Positions 31,501 through 55,842 are shown, counted from the first letter of the stretch. The stretch: 64,000 nucleotides of DNA from Sphingorhabdus sp. (GCF_041916035.1 NZ_JAYSAI010000001.1); one strand, 5' to 3'. The notes: a model not told the origin generated them from the sequence alone. A program made the numbers and translations.

Positions 31501-31517
31501 ATAACCTATTTGGTTAT
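31501..31517. promoter_or_regulatory. Palindrome upstream of the two-gene HTH operon (candidate operator)
   Basis: ATAACC-TATTT-GGTTAT, 40 bp upstream of the 31461 start codon. Confidence 0.45.
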
Positions 31518-31536
31518 ATGTAGGACAGATCCAAAT

Positions 31537-31589
31537 AAATAGGGACAGTCCCTATTTTCGCTCTCTTTAAATAGGGACTGTCCCTATTT
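31537..31589. repeat. Two 21-bp perfect palindromes AAATAGGGAC(A/T)GTCCCTATTT at the 3' end of the HUH transposase
   Basis: Copies at 31537-31557 and 31569-31589; the second supplies the transposase TAG stop. Confidence 0.95.
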
Positions 31590-32231
31590 ATTGAGTCTGC
31601 TTGGCCTGCCGCGCCTTTTGGGAGGTTCGCCCTGCCCGATCTGGCGCAGCCAATCTGCCGCGCCCAGCGGCCTGCCGGTCCTGATCGCCAGATCGACTTG
31701 CTCGGCTGCCTCCAGCCCGTTCGCCAGCATCGCCGCCCAGTTCGGCAGATGTTGGCCAAGTGCTGCAATGTCGGTAAGCCCGTCACCATCCCCCGAGATG
31801 TGCGCGCGGGCACTGGACCAGAGCCAATCCTCCGCCCGTTTGACCATGCCCGCCTTGACCGGATTATTCTCTATATAGCGCGCGGCAACCATCATGTGCG
31901 CGTCGTCCATCGCATAACTCGCAAAACGGCCCTGGAACAGGTGGCCAGACGTGTCCTGTAACTGGTTGATGCGCTGCGCATAAGTGGTATGGGCGCTGGC
32001 CAATGTGGCACGCAGCCCGTCTTCGGTTGCGGGCACCAGCATCAGATGGACATGGTTGGGCATCAGGCACCAGGCGAGGCAGCGTGTGCCGTGGCGGGTA
32101 AGCGCCAGTGCCAGTATCTCGATATAGGCGCGGTAATCCTCTTCACTGAAAAAGATCGGCTGCTGCCGGTTGCCACGCTGGGTGATGTGGTGCGGCACGC
32201 CGGGGATCACGATTCTGGCTGCACGTGGCAT
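31584..32231 (-). CDS. Y1 HUH transposase, RAYT-like (IS200/IS605 TnpA superfamily)
   Basis: HHITQRGNRQQPIF, WCLMPNHVHL (HUH), FQGRF, ARYIENNPVKAG (catalytic Tyr), W.WSS; C-terminal RRGRP. Confidence 0.92.
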   Translation of the reverse strand: MPRAARIVIPGVPHHITQRGNRQQPIFFSEEDYRAYIEILALALTRHGTRCLAWCLMPNHVHLMLVPATEDGLRATLASAHTTYAQRINQLQDTSGHLFQGRFASYAMDDAHMMVAARYIENNPVKAGMVKRAEDWLWSSARAHISGDGDGLTDIAALGQHLPNWAAMLANGLEAAEQVDLAIRTGRPLGAADWLRQIGQGEPPKRRGRPSRLNK

Positions 32232-32254
32232 GCGCGCTCCATGAATAGGGCCAT

Positions 32255-32327
32255 AAATAGGGACTGTCCCTATTTAATTGCATCGCAGGATGGTCGAGTC
32301 AAATTTAAATAGGGACTGTCCCTATTT
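32255..32327. repeat. Two 21-bp perfect palindromes AAATAGGGACTGTCCCTATTT at the 5' end of the HUH transposase
   Basis: Copies at 32255-32275 and 32307-32327; a partial AATAGGG at 32244-32250. Confidence 0.95.
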
Positions 32328-32361
32328 TTGTCGCACGCCACCCCCCATCGCGCCCACCGGC

Positions 32362-32390
32362 TTGCACCGCAAGCGCACTTCCGCTAGGCC
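32362..32390 (+). promoter_or_regulatory. Candidate sigma70 promoter of acnA
   Basis: TTGCAC-N17-TAGGCC, an alphaproteobacterial housekeeping-type promoter, about 160 nt before the ATG. Confidence 0.5.
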
Positions 32391-32552
32391 GCGCGCGATA
32401 GTCGAATCTCCCGCTTGTGCGCTGGTTTGATGGCCCTCGCCGACTGGTTCAGCCTGCCGTCCTTTGACAGGCCAAGGACTAGCGGTTTCATAGCAGGAAC
32501 CGTCCTTCCCCACTCCCGCGCATGGGCACCGAACAAAGAAGGGGTAATTACC

Positions 32553-53929: not shown

Positions 53930-53957
53930 CGTCGTCCCGAACTTGTTTCGGGATAGC
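53930..53957 (+). repeat. CGTC-tagged REP, left flank of the GIY-YIG gene
   Basis: CGTCGTCCCGAACTTGTTTCGGGATAGC. Confidence 0.85.
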
Positions 53958-53971
53958 ACACCAAAGGTTCG

Positions 53972-54274
53972 GTGCGTGATTTCCAGCCTTGCGTGTATAT
54001 CATGGCAAGCGGAATGCGCGGTTACATTTACATCGGCGTCACGTCCAATCTCGCCAAACGCTTTTATGAACATAATAATCGGTTGATCGACGGATTTTCT
54101 AAACGCCGCAACACAAACCGGCTGGTTCATTTCGAGCTTTTCGGCACTATGGAATTGGCCATCACCCGCGAGAAGCAGTTGAAAAACCGGCATCGGGACT
54201 GGAAGATCAATCTGATCGAAAGCACAAATCCGGAATGGCGGGATTTGGCGTTGGAATTGGGATTCAGCGATTGA
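53972..54274 (+). CDS. Small GIY-YIG nuclease family protein
   Basis: VYIMAS...YIGVTSNL..R..EH, LVHFE, AITREKQLK..R.WK..LIE..NP.W.DL. Confidence 0.92.
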   Translation: MRDFQPCVYIMASGMRGYIYIGVTSNLAKRFYEHNNRLIDGFSKRRNTNRLVHFELFGTMELAITREKQLKNRHRDWKINLIESTNPEWRDLALELGFSD

Positions 54275-54319
54275 AACGCAAGCCGAACGAGGCTCGCCGT
54301 TGGACACTGACGTCGCTTG

Positions 54320-54346
54320 TTATCCCGACACAAGTTCGGGATGACG
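54320..54346 (-). repeat. CGTC-tagged REP, right flank of the GIY-YIG gene (inverted)
   Basis: Reverse complement is CGTCATCCCGAACTTGTGTCGGGATAA. Confidence 0.88.
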
Positions 54347-54367
54347 AATTTTATGGGAAAATCGAAG

Positions 54368-55756
54368 ATGACCAAAACCCGCAGCGAAACCGACAGTTTC
54401 GGCCCCATAGACGTCCCTGCAGAGGCCTATTGGGGGGCGCAGACGCAGCGCAGCATCGGCAATTTCCCCTTCCCCCCGCACGAGCGGATGCCGCTGGGGA
54501 TCATCCATGGCCTGGCACAGGTGAAGCGCGCCGCCGCGCTGACGCACAAGGCGTCGGGTGCAATGCCTACGGAAATCGCCGATGCGATTGTCGCGGCAGC
54601 CGATGGCATTCTTGCCGGACGCTATGACGACCAGTTTCCCCTGACGATCTGGCAAACCGGCAGCGGCACCCAGTCGAACATGAATGTCAACGAGGTGATC
54701 GCGGGGATCGCCAACGAAGCCCTGACCGGCATTCGCGGCGGCAAGTCGCCGGTGCACCCCAACGATCATGTCAATATGGGCCAATCGTCGAACGACAGCT
54801 TCCCGACCGCGATCCACATCGCAGTCGCGGTCGCGACGCATCGCAATTTGTTGCCCGCACTGGCCCTGCTGACCGAAGCCTTGGCCGAAAAGGCCCGAAT
54901 GTGGATGGATATCGTCAAGATCGGCCGCACCCATTTGCAGGATGCGACGCCGCTGACGCTGGGGCAGGAATTTTCGGCCTATGTCGCGCAACTGATCACC
55001 GCGAAAAACCGCATCGAGGGCGCGGTGCTGCACAATGTGCAGAAACTGGCGCAGGGCGGCACGGCGGTTGGCACCGGGCTCAACGCGCCAGCCGGATTTG
55101 ACGGTGCCATCGCCGCCGAAGTCAGCAAGGCGACGGACATCGCCTTCACCCCTGCGCAGAACAAATTCGAGGCGCTGGCGACGCATGACGGGCTGCTATC
55201 CTATCATGGACAGCTCAACACGCTCGCCGTCAGCCTGACCAAGATTGCCAACGATATCCGTTTGCTCGGCTCTGGCCCGCGATCCGGCCTCGGCGAGCTT
55301 TCCCTGCCCGAAAACGAACCCGGCAGCTCGATCATGCCGGGCAAGGTCAACCCCACCCAGTGCGAGATGCTGACCATGGTCGCGGCACAGGTGATCGGCA
55401 ACCAGCAGGCCGTCACCGTCGGCGCGATGCAAGGTCATCTGGAACTCAACGTCTTCAAACCCCTGATCGGGGCCAATGTGCTGCGCTCGATCGAACTGCT
55501 GAGCATCGGCATGAAAACCTTCGCCAGAAACTGCGTCATGGGGCTGGAGCCAAACCGCGAACGCATCGCCGAACTGGTCGACCGCTCGTTGATGCTTGTC
55601 ACGGCGCTGGCGCCGCTGATCGGCTATGACAATGCGGCAAAAATCGCCAAGCACGCACACCAGAACGGTCTGACGCTCAAACAGTCCGCGCTCGCGCTGG
55701 GGCTGGTTGACGAAGCGACCTTCGACGCCCATGTCAGGGCGGAGGACATGGTGTAA
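54368..55756 (+). CDS. fumC: Fumarate hydratase class II
   Basis: [44 protein letters not shown]. Start placed at MTKTRSE. Confidence 0.97.
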
Positions 55757-55770
55757 GCCATCTCACATAT

Positions 55771-55842
55771 CGTCATCCCGAACTTGGTTCGGGATAACGC
55801 ACCGCCGTTCGTTTGTTATCCTGAAATATATTCAGGATGACG
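55771..55842. repeat. Empty REP doublet of the GIY-YIG-associated family
   Basis: CGTCATCCCGAACTTGGTTCGGGATAA (55771-55797) and an inverted CGTCATCCTGAATATATTTCAGGATAA (55816-55842). Confidence 0.88.

What the first reader, a model, noticed from the sequence alone, without database searches (positions are those of the whole stretch)
31537..32327. RAYT-like HUH transposase flanked by four 21-bp perfect palindromes of a non-GTAG type, with a C-terminal AT-hook-like motif
Seen: AAATAGGGAC(A/T)GTCCCTATTT occurs twice on each side (spacings 32 and 52 bp), one copy providing the stop codon. HUH and catalytic Tyr are intact and the protein ends KRRGRPSR. The repeats lack the GTAG/CGTC tetranucleotide tag of classical REPs and are single-base-loop perfect palindromes; no further copies occur in this 64 kb. 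Established: RAYTs cleave and spread their flanking REPs, and RGRP is the AT-hook core. Inference: a distinct REP-transposase class in which the AT-hook reads the AAATA/TATTT arms, possibly mobile as a whole unit.
Basis: partly seen in the sequence, partly recalled or inferred. Interest (0 to 1): 0.68.

Follow-up and report, generated by a model that had tools for sequence, protein, structure and literature searches.

The report
Tyrosine transposase with its palindromic repeats
A single-copy RAYT-type (HUH/tyrosine) transposase gene sits between four copies of a 21-base palindrome that is scattered about 20 times through this genome; it belongs to a class already described as TIRYT, RAYT group 1 or TnpAY1 subclass 2.1, so it is a clear but largely ordinary example.

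Summary
Four perfect copies of AAATAGGGAC(A/T)GTCCCTATTT flank a 215-aa Y1 HUH transposase gene, and the second copy supplies its TAG stop.

The whole genome holds about 20 true copies and one gene. Sixteen lie away from the gene: mostly at gene 3' ends, several exactly between convergent genes, and two in frame inside genes.

In 61 genomes of the genus, all 7 with a close homologue (at least 57% identity) carry 2-28 copies. Only 4 of the 54 others carry any. Orthologous empty sites show insertions of about 27-28 bp.

The protein is not a new class. Its motifs, its SS-containing C-terminal extension and its flanking GG(G/T)GACA(G/C) ends match the TIRYT/TIRtron family of Di Nocera 2013 (TnpAY1 subclass 2.1, RAYT group 1). 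The new detail is that in one Sphingomonadales clade the two inverted ends abut to form a self-complementary REP-like repeat.

The RGRP tail is real and lies in a low-confidence, unstructured part of the model. GRP-type tails are widespread in the family. RGRP tails go with all-A/T outer arms (0.91 against 0.69 A+T), which is suggestive, not proof.

Mobility of the whole unit is not shown. The scan noted the same element type in another genome (e1-5273411).

The parts
31537..31557 (.). Palindrome copy 1, AAATAGGGACAGTCCCTATTT (centre A on the + strand). It is the distal member of the doublet 3' of the gene.
   Evidence: As single-stranded DNA it folds into a 9-bp stem with a 3-nt loop, -6.6 kcal/mol, z = -5.1.
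31569..31589 (.). Palindrome copy 2 (centre T on +, A on the coding strand). It overlaps the last two codons and the TAG stop of the transposase gene.
   Evidence: Copies 1 and 2 together fold as a 24-bp hairpin, -23.3 kcal/mol.
31584..32231 (-). Y1 HUH tyrosine transposase gene (RAYT/TIRYT type), 215 aa. HVH is at nt 32046-32054, FQ at 31932-31937, Tyr119 at 31875-31877, WSS at 31812-31820. GGAG lies 6 nt upstream of the ATG.
   Evidence: Pfam Y1_Tnp E = 1.4e-9. NCBIfam REP_Tyr_transpos 77.9 bits against a cutoff of 80. AF2 model pLDDT 89.9, best fold match 4ER8 TnpAREP. Only full copy in the genome.
31596..31619 (-). C-terminal basic tail KRRGRPSR (AT-hook-like; RGRP at 31602-31613), in the lower-confidence tail of the model with no secondary structure.
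   Evidence: R207 is nearly invariant and G208 invariant among 27 homologues. No Pfam AT_hook hit.
32255..32275 (.). Palindrome copy 3 (centre T on +, A on the coding strand), ending 23 nt upstream of the start codon.
32307..32327 (.). Palindrome copy 4 (centre T on +, A on the coding strand). It is the distal upstream copy and lies next to the acnA upstream region.
   Evidence: The same [A][A]-gene-[A][T] layout is seen in the 78%-identity orthologue L142.
31520..31528 (+). GTAGGACAG, a degenerate half-site-like motif beside the ATAACC-N5-GGTTAT palindrome. It may be a relic end or may belong to the neighbouring gene pair.
   Evidence: Read. The same arrangement is conserved next to homologues in L114 and L149. 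Its function was not tested.

Best explanation
This is a REPtron/TIRtron. A single-copy, chromosomal Y1 HUH tyrosine transposase of the TIRYT type (TnpAY1 subclass 2.1, RAYT group 1) is bracketed by doublets of its cognate repeat.

The repeat is a palindrome of 21-27 nt. Its two halves are the family's usual inverted end, (A/T-rich)-GGGACAG, set head to head, so that either DNA strand can fold into a 9-bp hairpin.

Inferred mechanism, by analogy with E. coli TnpAREP and IS608/ISDra2 TnpA. The enzyme binds the hairpin when DNA is single-stranded, for example on the lagging-strand template. It cuts next to the hairpin, using the HUH-bound metal and Tyr119 to form a 5'-phosphotyrosine link. It then rejoins the strand elsewhere, which copies or moves units of about 27 nt into A/T-rich spots. 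In a 61% G+C genome such spots are mostly stop-codon regions.

Shown here: the fold and catalytic motifs, the genome-wide dispersal, the co-occurrence of gene and repeat, and the insertion polymorphism.

Inferred: binding, the cleavage site, strand transfer, and the role of the basic RGRP tail on the A/T arms.
For: 1. Fold and motifs. Pfam Y1_Tnp. A profile of the family hits 4ER8 at E = 1.6e-8, with the HUH and Tyr residues aligned. The AF2 model has pLDDT 89.9, and its top Foldseek hit is TnpAREP bound to a REP hairpin (E = 7.7e-10, TM 0.76), ahead of the IS200/IS605 TnpA structures.

2. Dispersal. There are 21 matches in 2.61 Mb and 0 in the control. About 20 are true copies, of which 16 lie away from the gene. 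There is only one intact gene.

3. Co-occurrence. In 61 genomes of the genus, 7 of 7 with a close homologue (62% or more in the genome search table; 57-100% by tblastn) have 2-28 copies. Only 4 of 54 without one have any copy: 9, 1, 1 and 1. Fisher p = 7.6e-7 without correction for relatedness. Other homologue-bearing genomes hold the core 124, 56 and 8 times.

4. The same palindrome flanks homologues of 65-81% identity at other loci.

5. Insertion polymorphism. There is a 27-nt in-frame insert in a class-V aminotransferase (SufS-like) gene relative to a congener. There is an insert of about 28 nt between convergent genes that is absent from 8 congeners. A decaying copy sits at the orthologous site in G234, which lacks the gene.

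6. Family assignment. The motifs are NHVH, FQ, YIENNP and WSS. The protein aligns by eye with published TIRYTs. GG[GT]GACA[CG] ends occur in nearly all of 95 homologue loci.

7. Among singletons lying in clear GC skew, 9 of 11 have centre A on the G-rich strand. That is what a single-strand mechanism at the replication fork would predict (two-sided p = 0.065).
Against: No biochemistry exists for this subclass. Binding, the cleavage site and transfer are all inferred.

NCBIfam's RAYT equivalog score is just below its cutoff, 77.9 against 80.

The repeat lacks the GT[AG]G head of classical REPs.

G211 has 9 copies but only a 45%-identity homologue with different ends, so the link between gene and repeat is not absolute. 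The gene may have been lost or left unassembled there.

Copy number is low, about 20.

In the carboxyltransferase gene the repeat replaces a linker of equal length rather than adding to it, which a simple insertion does not explain.

The co-occurrence statistics ignore shared ancestry.
Confidence: 0.78

Rival explanations
1. The palindromes are host elements: bidirectional terminators, mRNA-stabilising hairpins or operator sites for a regulator. On this view they are kept by selection, and their link to the transposase gene is incidental or purely regulatory.
For: Many copies sit exactly at gene 3' ends. Five sit between convergent genes. The stem is followed by T's and preceded by A's. One copy lies 23 nt upstream of the transposase start codon and could autoregulate it.
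Against: The terminator scan does not flag them, because the T-run is too short. Two copies lie in frame inside genes. Sixteen copies are perfectly identical, yet congeners have none. Orthologous sites are empty in relatives. Copy presence tracks the transposase gene. A secondary terminator role after insertion is not excluded.
Confidence: 0.07
2. The gene plus its flanking palindromes is an autonomous insertion sequence of the IS200/IS605 kind that moves as a whole unit. The solo palindromes would then be footprints or solo ends.
For: Distribution of the gene within the genus is patchy: 14 of 61 genomes have any homologue. At the same acnA locus two congeners carry a 51%-identity homologue in the opposite orientation, although AcnA is about 96% identical in one of them, L149. 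Homologues lie at other loci in other genera. Published work finds that group 1 RAYTs are the most IS-like of the RAYT groups.
Against: There is one gene copy in the genome, plus one internally deleted remnant of a different subtype. The Tyr motif is Y---NP rather than the Y---Q of IS200. There is no tnpB. Orthologues of 73-81% identity keep the same locus and orientation, which points to vertical descent. Nothing close is found on plasmids; the best hit is 35% identical. No clean empty site for the whole unit was found.
Confidence: 0.08
3. The C-terminal KRRGRPSR is a working AT-hook that reads the AAATA/TATTT arms. This is the first reader's sub-hypothesis, and it is compatible with the main explanation.
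For: The tail lies in a low-confidence, structure-free end of the model. RGRP is nearly invariant in the close clade. GRP-type tails recur across phyla in the published TIRYT alignment. Outer hexamers are 0.91 A+T for the 11 RGRP-tailed loci and 0.69 for the 56 GPK-type loci. RGRP with TAAAT arms occurs in two clades far apart on the tree. Two tail-less lineages (L021; L020/L144/L145) have GC-richer arms.
Against: The Pfam AT_hook model gives no hit even at E = 10. Most family members have RGPKPK, which is not an AT-hook, yet still have AATT-rich ends. Some GRP-tailed members have ordinary arms: L048, L049, L089. Only about 3-4 independent contrasts exist. The tail codons and the 3' repeat are adjacent, so they could be co-transferred. 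AT-hooks bind duplex minor grooves, whereas Y1 enzymes act on single strands.
Confidence: 0.35

Closest known systems
TIRYT / TIRtron (Di Nocera et al. 2013, PMC3733652). This equals TnpAY1 subclass 2.1 (Quentin et al. 2018, PMC6006769) and RAYT group 1 (Bertels et al. 2017, PMC5581495).
   Same: The Y1 HUH core has NHVH, FQ/WQ and Y--(L/N)NP. A WSS-containing C-terminal extension ends in a basic G(R/P)(P/K) tail, and total length is about 215-240 aa. The gene is single copy. The flanking inverted ends carry GGGGWSAS. Flanking repeat families are modest in size; Bertels reports about 12 occurrences of flanking 16-mers. Some published TIRs are self-complementary and clustered.
   Different: Here the two ends are fused into a perfect 21-nt palindrome, which spreads as solo units of about 27 nt, including in-frame insertions in genes. 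Quentin et al. found no REP-like sequences for subclass 2.1, and Bertels et al. call group 1 rare in Alphaproteobacteria. No Pfam HTH or Bac_DnaA_C domain was detected in the C-terminal part.
E. coli TnpAREP (RayT/YafM) with GTAG REPs; subclass 2.2, RAYT group 2; PDB 4ER8.
   Same: It is the best structural match (TM 0.76) and the best sequence-profile match. Both are single genes flanked by their own hairpin repeats, and in both the repeats are dispersed mainly at gene ends.
   Different: Identity is only 22% in the structural alignment. The E. coli protein is 165 aa and lacks the long helical extension and the basic tail. Its REPs are imperfect palindromes with a GTAG head, arranged in BIMEs and present in hundreds of copies. 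The NCBIfam equivalog cutoff is narrowly missed.
Subclass 2.4 (RAYT group 4) 'double-foot' REPs, for example GTAGGGACAG... in Pasteurellaceae (supplement of PMC6006769).
   Same: The head-plus-stem GTAG-GGACAG matches the window's ATAG-GGACAG in 9 of 10 bases. 'Double foot' means the head and its complement at both ends, as in ATAG...CTAT. In-frame REP insertions in genes are reported. The Tyr motif YIxNNP matches YIENNP.
   Different: Subclass 2.4 proteins have a 146-aa core with insertions and no tail domain. The window's protein has the short core plus the SS tail of subclass 2.1, and it aligns with the TIRYTs.
IS200/IS605 TnpA (IS608, ISDra2).
   Same: The same HUH/Tyr fold. These enzymes use single-stranded hairpin ends, and orientation bias relative to replication is known for them.
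   Different: The Tyr motif is Y---Q. These elements occur in many identical copies, have distinct left and right ends, and often carry tnpB. None of this is seen here.

Membership tests
RAYT / TnpAREP in the broad sense (class 2 TnpAY1) | Y1_Tnp fold with an HUH motif and one catalytic Tyr | tested here: met
   HVH at 60-62 and Y119 align with the E. coli residues.
RAYT / TnpAREP in the broad sense (class 2 TnpAY1) | Tyr motif Y---NP (class 2), not the Y---Q of IS200 | tested here: met
   YIENNP at 119-124, compared with Table 1 of PMC6006769.
RAYT / TnpAREP in the broad sense (class 2 TnpAY1) | Low-copy gene flanked by a repeat that is dispersed through the genome | tested here: met
   One gene. 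About 20 copies, 4 of them flanking the gene.
Classical REP (GTAG type) | 5' GT[AG]G tetranucleotide at the foot of an imperfect hairpin | tested here: not met
   The head is ATAG and the palindrome is perfect. Homologues have TTAG, CTAG, ATTG or AAAG.
NCBIfam NF047646 REP_Tyr_transpos (equivalog) | Score at or above the curated cutoff of 80 bits | tested here: not met
   77.9 bits.
TIRYT / TnpAY1 subclass 2.1 / RAYT group 1 | Motifs NHVH (or NH[YF]H), W[EQ] or FQ, and YIELNP / Y[IV]HLNP | tested here: met
   The window has NHVH, FQ and YIENNP, with N in place of L. The family consensus is HLWQGRF and YVExNP.
TIRYT / TnpAY1 subclass 2.1 / RAYT group 1 | Tail domain with a conserved SS, plus a C-terminal extension; median length 238 aa | tested here: met
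   WSS at 138-140, invariant in 59 sequences. The protein is 215 aa with a helical region at 141-197.
TIRYT / TnpAY1 subclass 2.1 / RAYT group 1 | Flanking terminal inverted repeats sharing GGGGWSAS | tested here: met
   AGGGACAG in the window, 7 of 8. GGGGACAC/G or GGTGACAG lies in the flanks of nearly all 95 homologue loci.
TIRYT / TnpAY1 subclass 2.1 / RAYT group 1 | Sequence kinship with published members | tested here: met
   Read by eye against Additional file 5 of PMC3733652. The shared blocks PHHVTQRGN, AWCLMPNHVHL, GH.WQGRF, WSS.RAH, GRP.G and KRG(P/R) match bbt 5382, ccr 1445, mlo 6832 and gsu 2396.
TnpAY1 subgroup 2.1.2 | C-terminal Bac_DnaA_C, HTH_23 or HTH_28 domain | tested here: not met
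   No such Pfam hit. The protein is therefore more likely 2.1.1-like.
IS200/IS605 | Multiple near-identical copies of the whole element, often with tnpB | tested here: not met
   One copy and no tnpB next to it.
AT-hook | GRP core flanked by Arg/Lys in an unstructured segment | tested here: met
   KRRGRPSR at 205-212. pLDDT is about 68 with no secondary structure.
AT-hook | Match to the Pfam AT_hook profile | tested here: inconclusive
   No hit at E up to 10. The model is very short and HMMER's filters drop weak hits.
AT-hook | Binds the minor groove of A/T-rich duplex DNA | not testable with these tools
   Only the correlation of RGRP tails with A/T-only arms is available.

The most novel reading that the evidence does not exclude
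Two linked readings remain open. First, the basic G-R/P-P/K tail of TIRYT enzymes may be a true AT-hook-like module that reads the A/T-rich outer part of the element end and co-evolves with it. RGRP goes with all-A/T arms, RGPKPK with AATTCC, and loss of the tail with GC-richer tandem cores. Second, the 21-27-nt palindrome may be a cargo-free miniature element made of the two inverted ends abutted. If so, a subclass reported to have no REPs does run its own REP-like populations of 20 to more than 100 copies in Sphingomonadales.
Probability: 0.3. Interest if true: 0.6.

Novelty: new member of a known kind. Interest (0 to 1): 0.4.

Why it matters
The biochemistry of REP/RAYT systems rests on one enzyme, E. 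coli TnpAREP. How REPs actually spread is still open.

Subclass 2.1 (group 1) is the largest RAYT group, yet it has no studied member and was reported to lack REP-like partners.

This locus and its relatives offer a compact, well-defined pair: a 215-aa enzyme and a perfect 21-nt hairpin. They come with natural variants (with and without the tail, A/T-rich or G/C-rich arms) and clear insertion polymorphisms. That makes substrate recognition, and the role of the AT-hook-like tail, directly testable.

It does not change the known picture of these elements.

Tried and rejected
1. Rfam, at a permissive E-value, gave only sub-threshold hairpin look-alikes (plastid 3'-UTR and miRNA models). No known RNA family matches.

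2. The terminator and promoter scans did not flag the palindromes. The only terminator-like sites lie inside the neighbouring 91-aa ORF.

3. Pfam on the C-terminal 68 and 28 residues found no AT_hook or HTH domain.

4. A plasmid search with the protein found nothing above 35% identity over the full length, or 41% over the core only. No plasmid vehicle is evident.

5. I looked for an empty site for the whole gene-plus-repeat unit. G182 and G234 have other DNA (2.7 and 3.2 kb) between acnA and the small ORF pair. G209 and G211 were uninformative. No clean empty site was found.

6. The match at C2:46993 (2 mismatches) lies in the conserved LFISQSGET motif of glmS. I treat it as a look-alike and not as a copy.

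7. I considered subclass 2.4, because of YIxNNP and the GTAGGGACAG double-foot REPs. I rejected it on core length, the SS tail and the alignment with TIRYTs.

9. The supplements of PMC6006769 list no Sphingomonadales member.

Full report
OBSERVATION

The sequence is as described. AAATAGGGAC(A/T)GTCCCTATTT occurs at window 31537-57, 31569-89, 32255-75 and 32307-27. All four copies are perfect, with start-to-start spacings of 32 and 52 nt. The 11-nt core with up to one mismatch occurs 4 times, against 0.58 expected, and no shuffle out of 100 reached 4.

The copies bracket an ORF on the minus strand, 31584..32231, of 215 aa. Its TAG stop lies inside the second copy. HVH is at residues 60-62 and Tyr at 119. 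The protein ends KRRGRPSRLNK.

As single-stranded DNA one unit folds into a 9-bp stem with a 3-nt loop (-6.6 kcal/mol, z = -5.1). The adjacent pairs fold into long hairpins of -23 kcal/mol.

THE GENOME-WIDE PICTURE

The window's genome is 2.61 Mb in 33 contigs at 61% G+C. It has 21 matches at up to 2 mismatches, 16 of them perfect; the reversed-pattern control gives 0.

One match lies in the conserved LFISQSGET motif of glmS and is probably a look-alike. That leaves about 20 copies, 16 of them away from the gene.

There is only one intact gene.

Using a rough gene call based on codon-position G+C, I placed the dispersed copies as follows:
- Most abut or overlap stop codons.
- Five sit exactly between convergent genes.
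- One other doublet exists, at C9:139698/139761, spaced 63 nt.
- Two copies lie in frame inside genes: a carboxyltransferase and a class-V aminotransferase (SufS-like). Pfam confirms both genes.

The flanks add a weak A/T extension, consensus aaT-[21-mer]-Aa/t.

LINK BETWEEN GENE AND REPEAT

I scanned 61 genomes of the same genus.
- All 7 genomes with a close homologue have 2-28 copies of TAGGGACWGTCCCTA. The search table puts these homologues at 62% identity or more; tblastn gives 57-100%.
- Of the 54 genomes without one, four have copies: 9, 1, 1 and 1.
- Controls are 0.
- Fisher p = 7.6e-7, not corrected for relatedness.
- Genomes with only distant homologues (53% or less) have no copies of this sequence. 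G211 is the one exception.

In 200 genomes of the wider family only one other genome has the 17-mer, and it has a single copy.

Genomes holding more distant members of the same clade carry the core GGGACWGTCCC 124, 56 and 8 times. In one of them the copies come as doublets about 60 nt apart, which resembles REPINs.

The identical palindrome flanks homologues of 65-81% protein identity in metagenomic contigs, partly at other loci such as rpoD-rpiB. Several database homologues end in GTVPI(F) or NRDSP, which are translations of the palindrome.

MOBILITY

Three orthologous comparisons bear on this.
- The aminotransferase gene of a congener (G210) lacks 27 nt that are present in this genome. The site reads AAA|AAG, and the insert is the 21-mer plus A/T flanks, in frame.
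- Between two convergent genes at C6:94037, this genome has about 28 extra nt that are absent from eight congeners.
- At C29:159399 the closest relative, G234, lacks the gene. It retains a copy with a mutated left arm at the same site, and more distant relatives have none.

In the carboxyltransferase linker the repeat replaces 10 codons with 10 codons. A genome of another genus (G074) has no transposase gene found and only this one copy. Its palindrome sits at the same position but in another reading frame. I cannot say whether that reflects one old event or two.

Together these are the marks of a small mobile repeat whose copies decay once the gene is gone.

WHAT THE PROTEIN IS

- Pfam: Y1_Tnp, E = 1.4e-9.
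- NCBIfam's RAYT equivalog: 77.9 bits, just under the cutoff of 80.
- A 59-sequence profile hits E. coli TnpAREP (4ER8) at E = 1.6e-8, with HUH and Tyr aligned. ISDra2 TnpA is the next hit.
- The AlphaFold model has pLDDT 89.9. Its best match is 4ER8, TnpAREP bound to a REP hairpin (E = 7.7e-10, TM 0.76), followed by the IS200/IS605 transposases.
- Residues 141-197 are helical. The last 18 residues, including RGRP, have no secondary structure and lower confidence.

COMPARISON WITH WHAT IS KNOWN

Quentin et al. 2018 divide the TnpAY1 proteins into subclasses. The window's protein has NHVH, FQ, YIENNP and a WSS tail motif, with a short core and a C-terminal extension. That fits subclass 2.1, which they equate with Bertels' RAYT group 1 and with the TIRYTs of Di Nocera et al. 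2013.

Di Nocera's published alignment contains proteins that share block after block with this one: bbt 5382, ccr 1445, mlo 6832 and gsu 2396. I compared them by eye only.

Di Nocera et al. report the following:
- TIRYT genes are flanked by terminal inverted repeats sharing GGGGWSAS.
- Some of these repeats are self-complementary.
- Some form moderately abundant families.

I tested the repeat feature directly. In 95 homologue loci from many phyla, nearly all have GG[GT]GACA[CG] in the flanks, typically AATTCC-GGGGACAC or AATTAC-GGTGACAG. The window has AGGGACAG.

On a protein tree, the loci in which the motif and its complement abut as GGGACWGTCCC form one clade, which contains the window. 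In a same-genus relative with a 51%-identity homologue, the end is AAATAGGGACAG followed by other sequence, arranged as spaced inverted pairs.

So the window's palindrome is best read as two family-typical ends set head to head. The class is therefore known. The following points are not in the papers I read:
- The fused palindromic form.
- Its spread as solo units of about 27 nt in Sphingomonadales.
- The contrast with Quentin's statement that no REP-like sequences accompany subclass 2.1.
- The contrast with Bertels' remark that group 1 is rare in Alphaproteobacteria.

The head ATAG-GGACAG also resembles the GTAG-GGACAG 'double-foot' REPs of subclass 2.4. The protein, however, does not fit 2.4.

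THE AT-HOOK IDEA

RGRP is nearly invariant among close homologues. More distant ones mostly end in KRGPKPK or KPGRKP. Many TIRYTs from other phyla in the published alignment end in RGRP- or PGRP-type tails. The tail is therefore an old family feature.

The Pfam AT_hook model gives no hit.

Across loci, the six bases outside the GGGACAG motif are 0.91 A+T for the 11 RGRP-tailed proteins and 0.69 for the 56 GPK-type proteins. The uncorrected p is 5e-5.

On the tree, RGRP with TAAAT arms appears in two widely separated clades. Two lineages that lost the tail have GC-richer arms.

This is suggestive. It rests on three or four independent contrasts, and there are counter-examples (L048, L049, L089). 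I give it about one chance in three.

WHOLE-UNIT MOBILITY

Orthologues of 73-81% identity keep the same place beside acnA and the same orientation.

Two congeners carry a 51%-identity homologue at that locus in the opposite orientation. AcnA is about 96% identical in one of them, L149; the other, L148, matches in fragments of 62-92%. Other congeners have unrelated DNA there.

The locus is variable, but no clean empty site or second copy was found. Nothing close lies on plasmids.

ORIENTATION

Among singleton copies in regions of clear GC skew, 9 of 11 have the centre A on the G-rich strand (two-sided p = 0.065). This is weak, but it goes in the direction expected for a single-strand mechanism at the replication fork.

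VERDICT

The claim of a distinct class is not: this is a TIRYT / subclass 2.1 / group 1 element with a fused-end palindromic repeat. The AT-hook proposal is open and testable.

Noticed in passing
G000:C6:192690-193800 (L017:1493-1795 and about 2500-2600); not in the window: There is an internally deleted remnant of a second TIRYT-type gene. Its N-terminal ~22 aa are fused to the C-terminal ~75 aa, ending KRGRRP, and a second N-terminal fragment lies about 1 kb away. It is flanked by AATTACGGTG(C/A)CAG-type ends. AATTACGGTGACAG occurs 7 times genome-wide.
   Followed up: partly
G000:C2:46993-47013; not in the window: A 19-of-21 match to the palindrome lies inside glmS and encodes the conserved GGLSLFISQSGET motif. 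It is probably a chance look-alike. By my own rough estimate, not a tool result, a random match this close would be expected only about 0.002 times in this genome.
   Followed up: partly
G074:C310:1612-1636 (L109): A genome of another genus, in which no transposase gene was found, keeps one perfect copy. It lies in frame in the linker of a carboxyltransferase gene, at the same position as copy C28:85729 of this genome but in a different reading frame. The linker is 12 aa there and 10 aa here.
   Followed up: partly
window 31503-31528: ATAACC-N5-GGTTAT followed by ATGTAGGACAG lies upstream of the 91-aa/237-aa gene pair. The same arrangement is conserved beside homologues of the transposase in L114 and L149. 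GTAGGACAG looks like a degenerate half of the repeat.
   Followed up: partly
window 31530-32540 and the orthologous places G234:C1:379770-383031 and G182:C1:57223-59964: The interval between acnA and the small ORF pair is a variable spot in this genus. Depending on the genome it holds this transposase, a 51%-identity homologue in reverse orientation (L148, L149), or 2.7-3.2 kb of unrelated DNA that appears low in G+C.
   Followed up: partly
L112:3640-3700 (metagenomic orthologue, 81% identity): Downstream of the orthologue lies a different, longer palindrome with the same AAATAGGG arms but a different centre (AAATAGGGAGCGAAGCCCC...GGGGCTTCGCTCCCTATTT). It suggests that the arms and the core can be exchanged.
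   Followed up: no
window 53930-55842: Another note of the scan (e1-5282351) reports CGTC-tagged 27-bp palindromes around a GIY-YIG gene near fumC in the same window. That would be a second, unrelated repeat family. I did not examine it.
   Followed up: no
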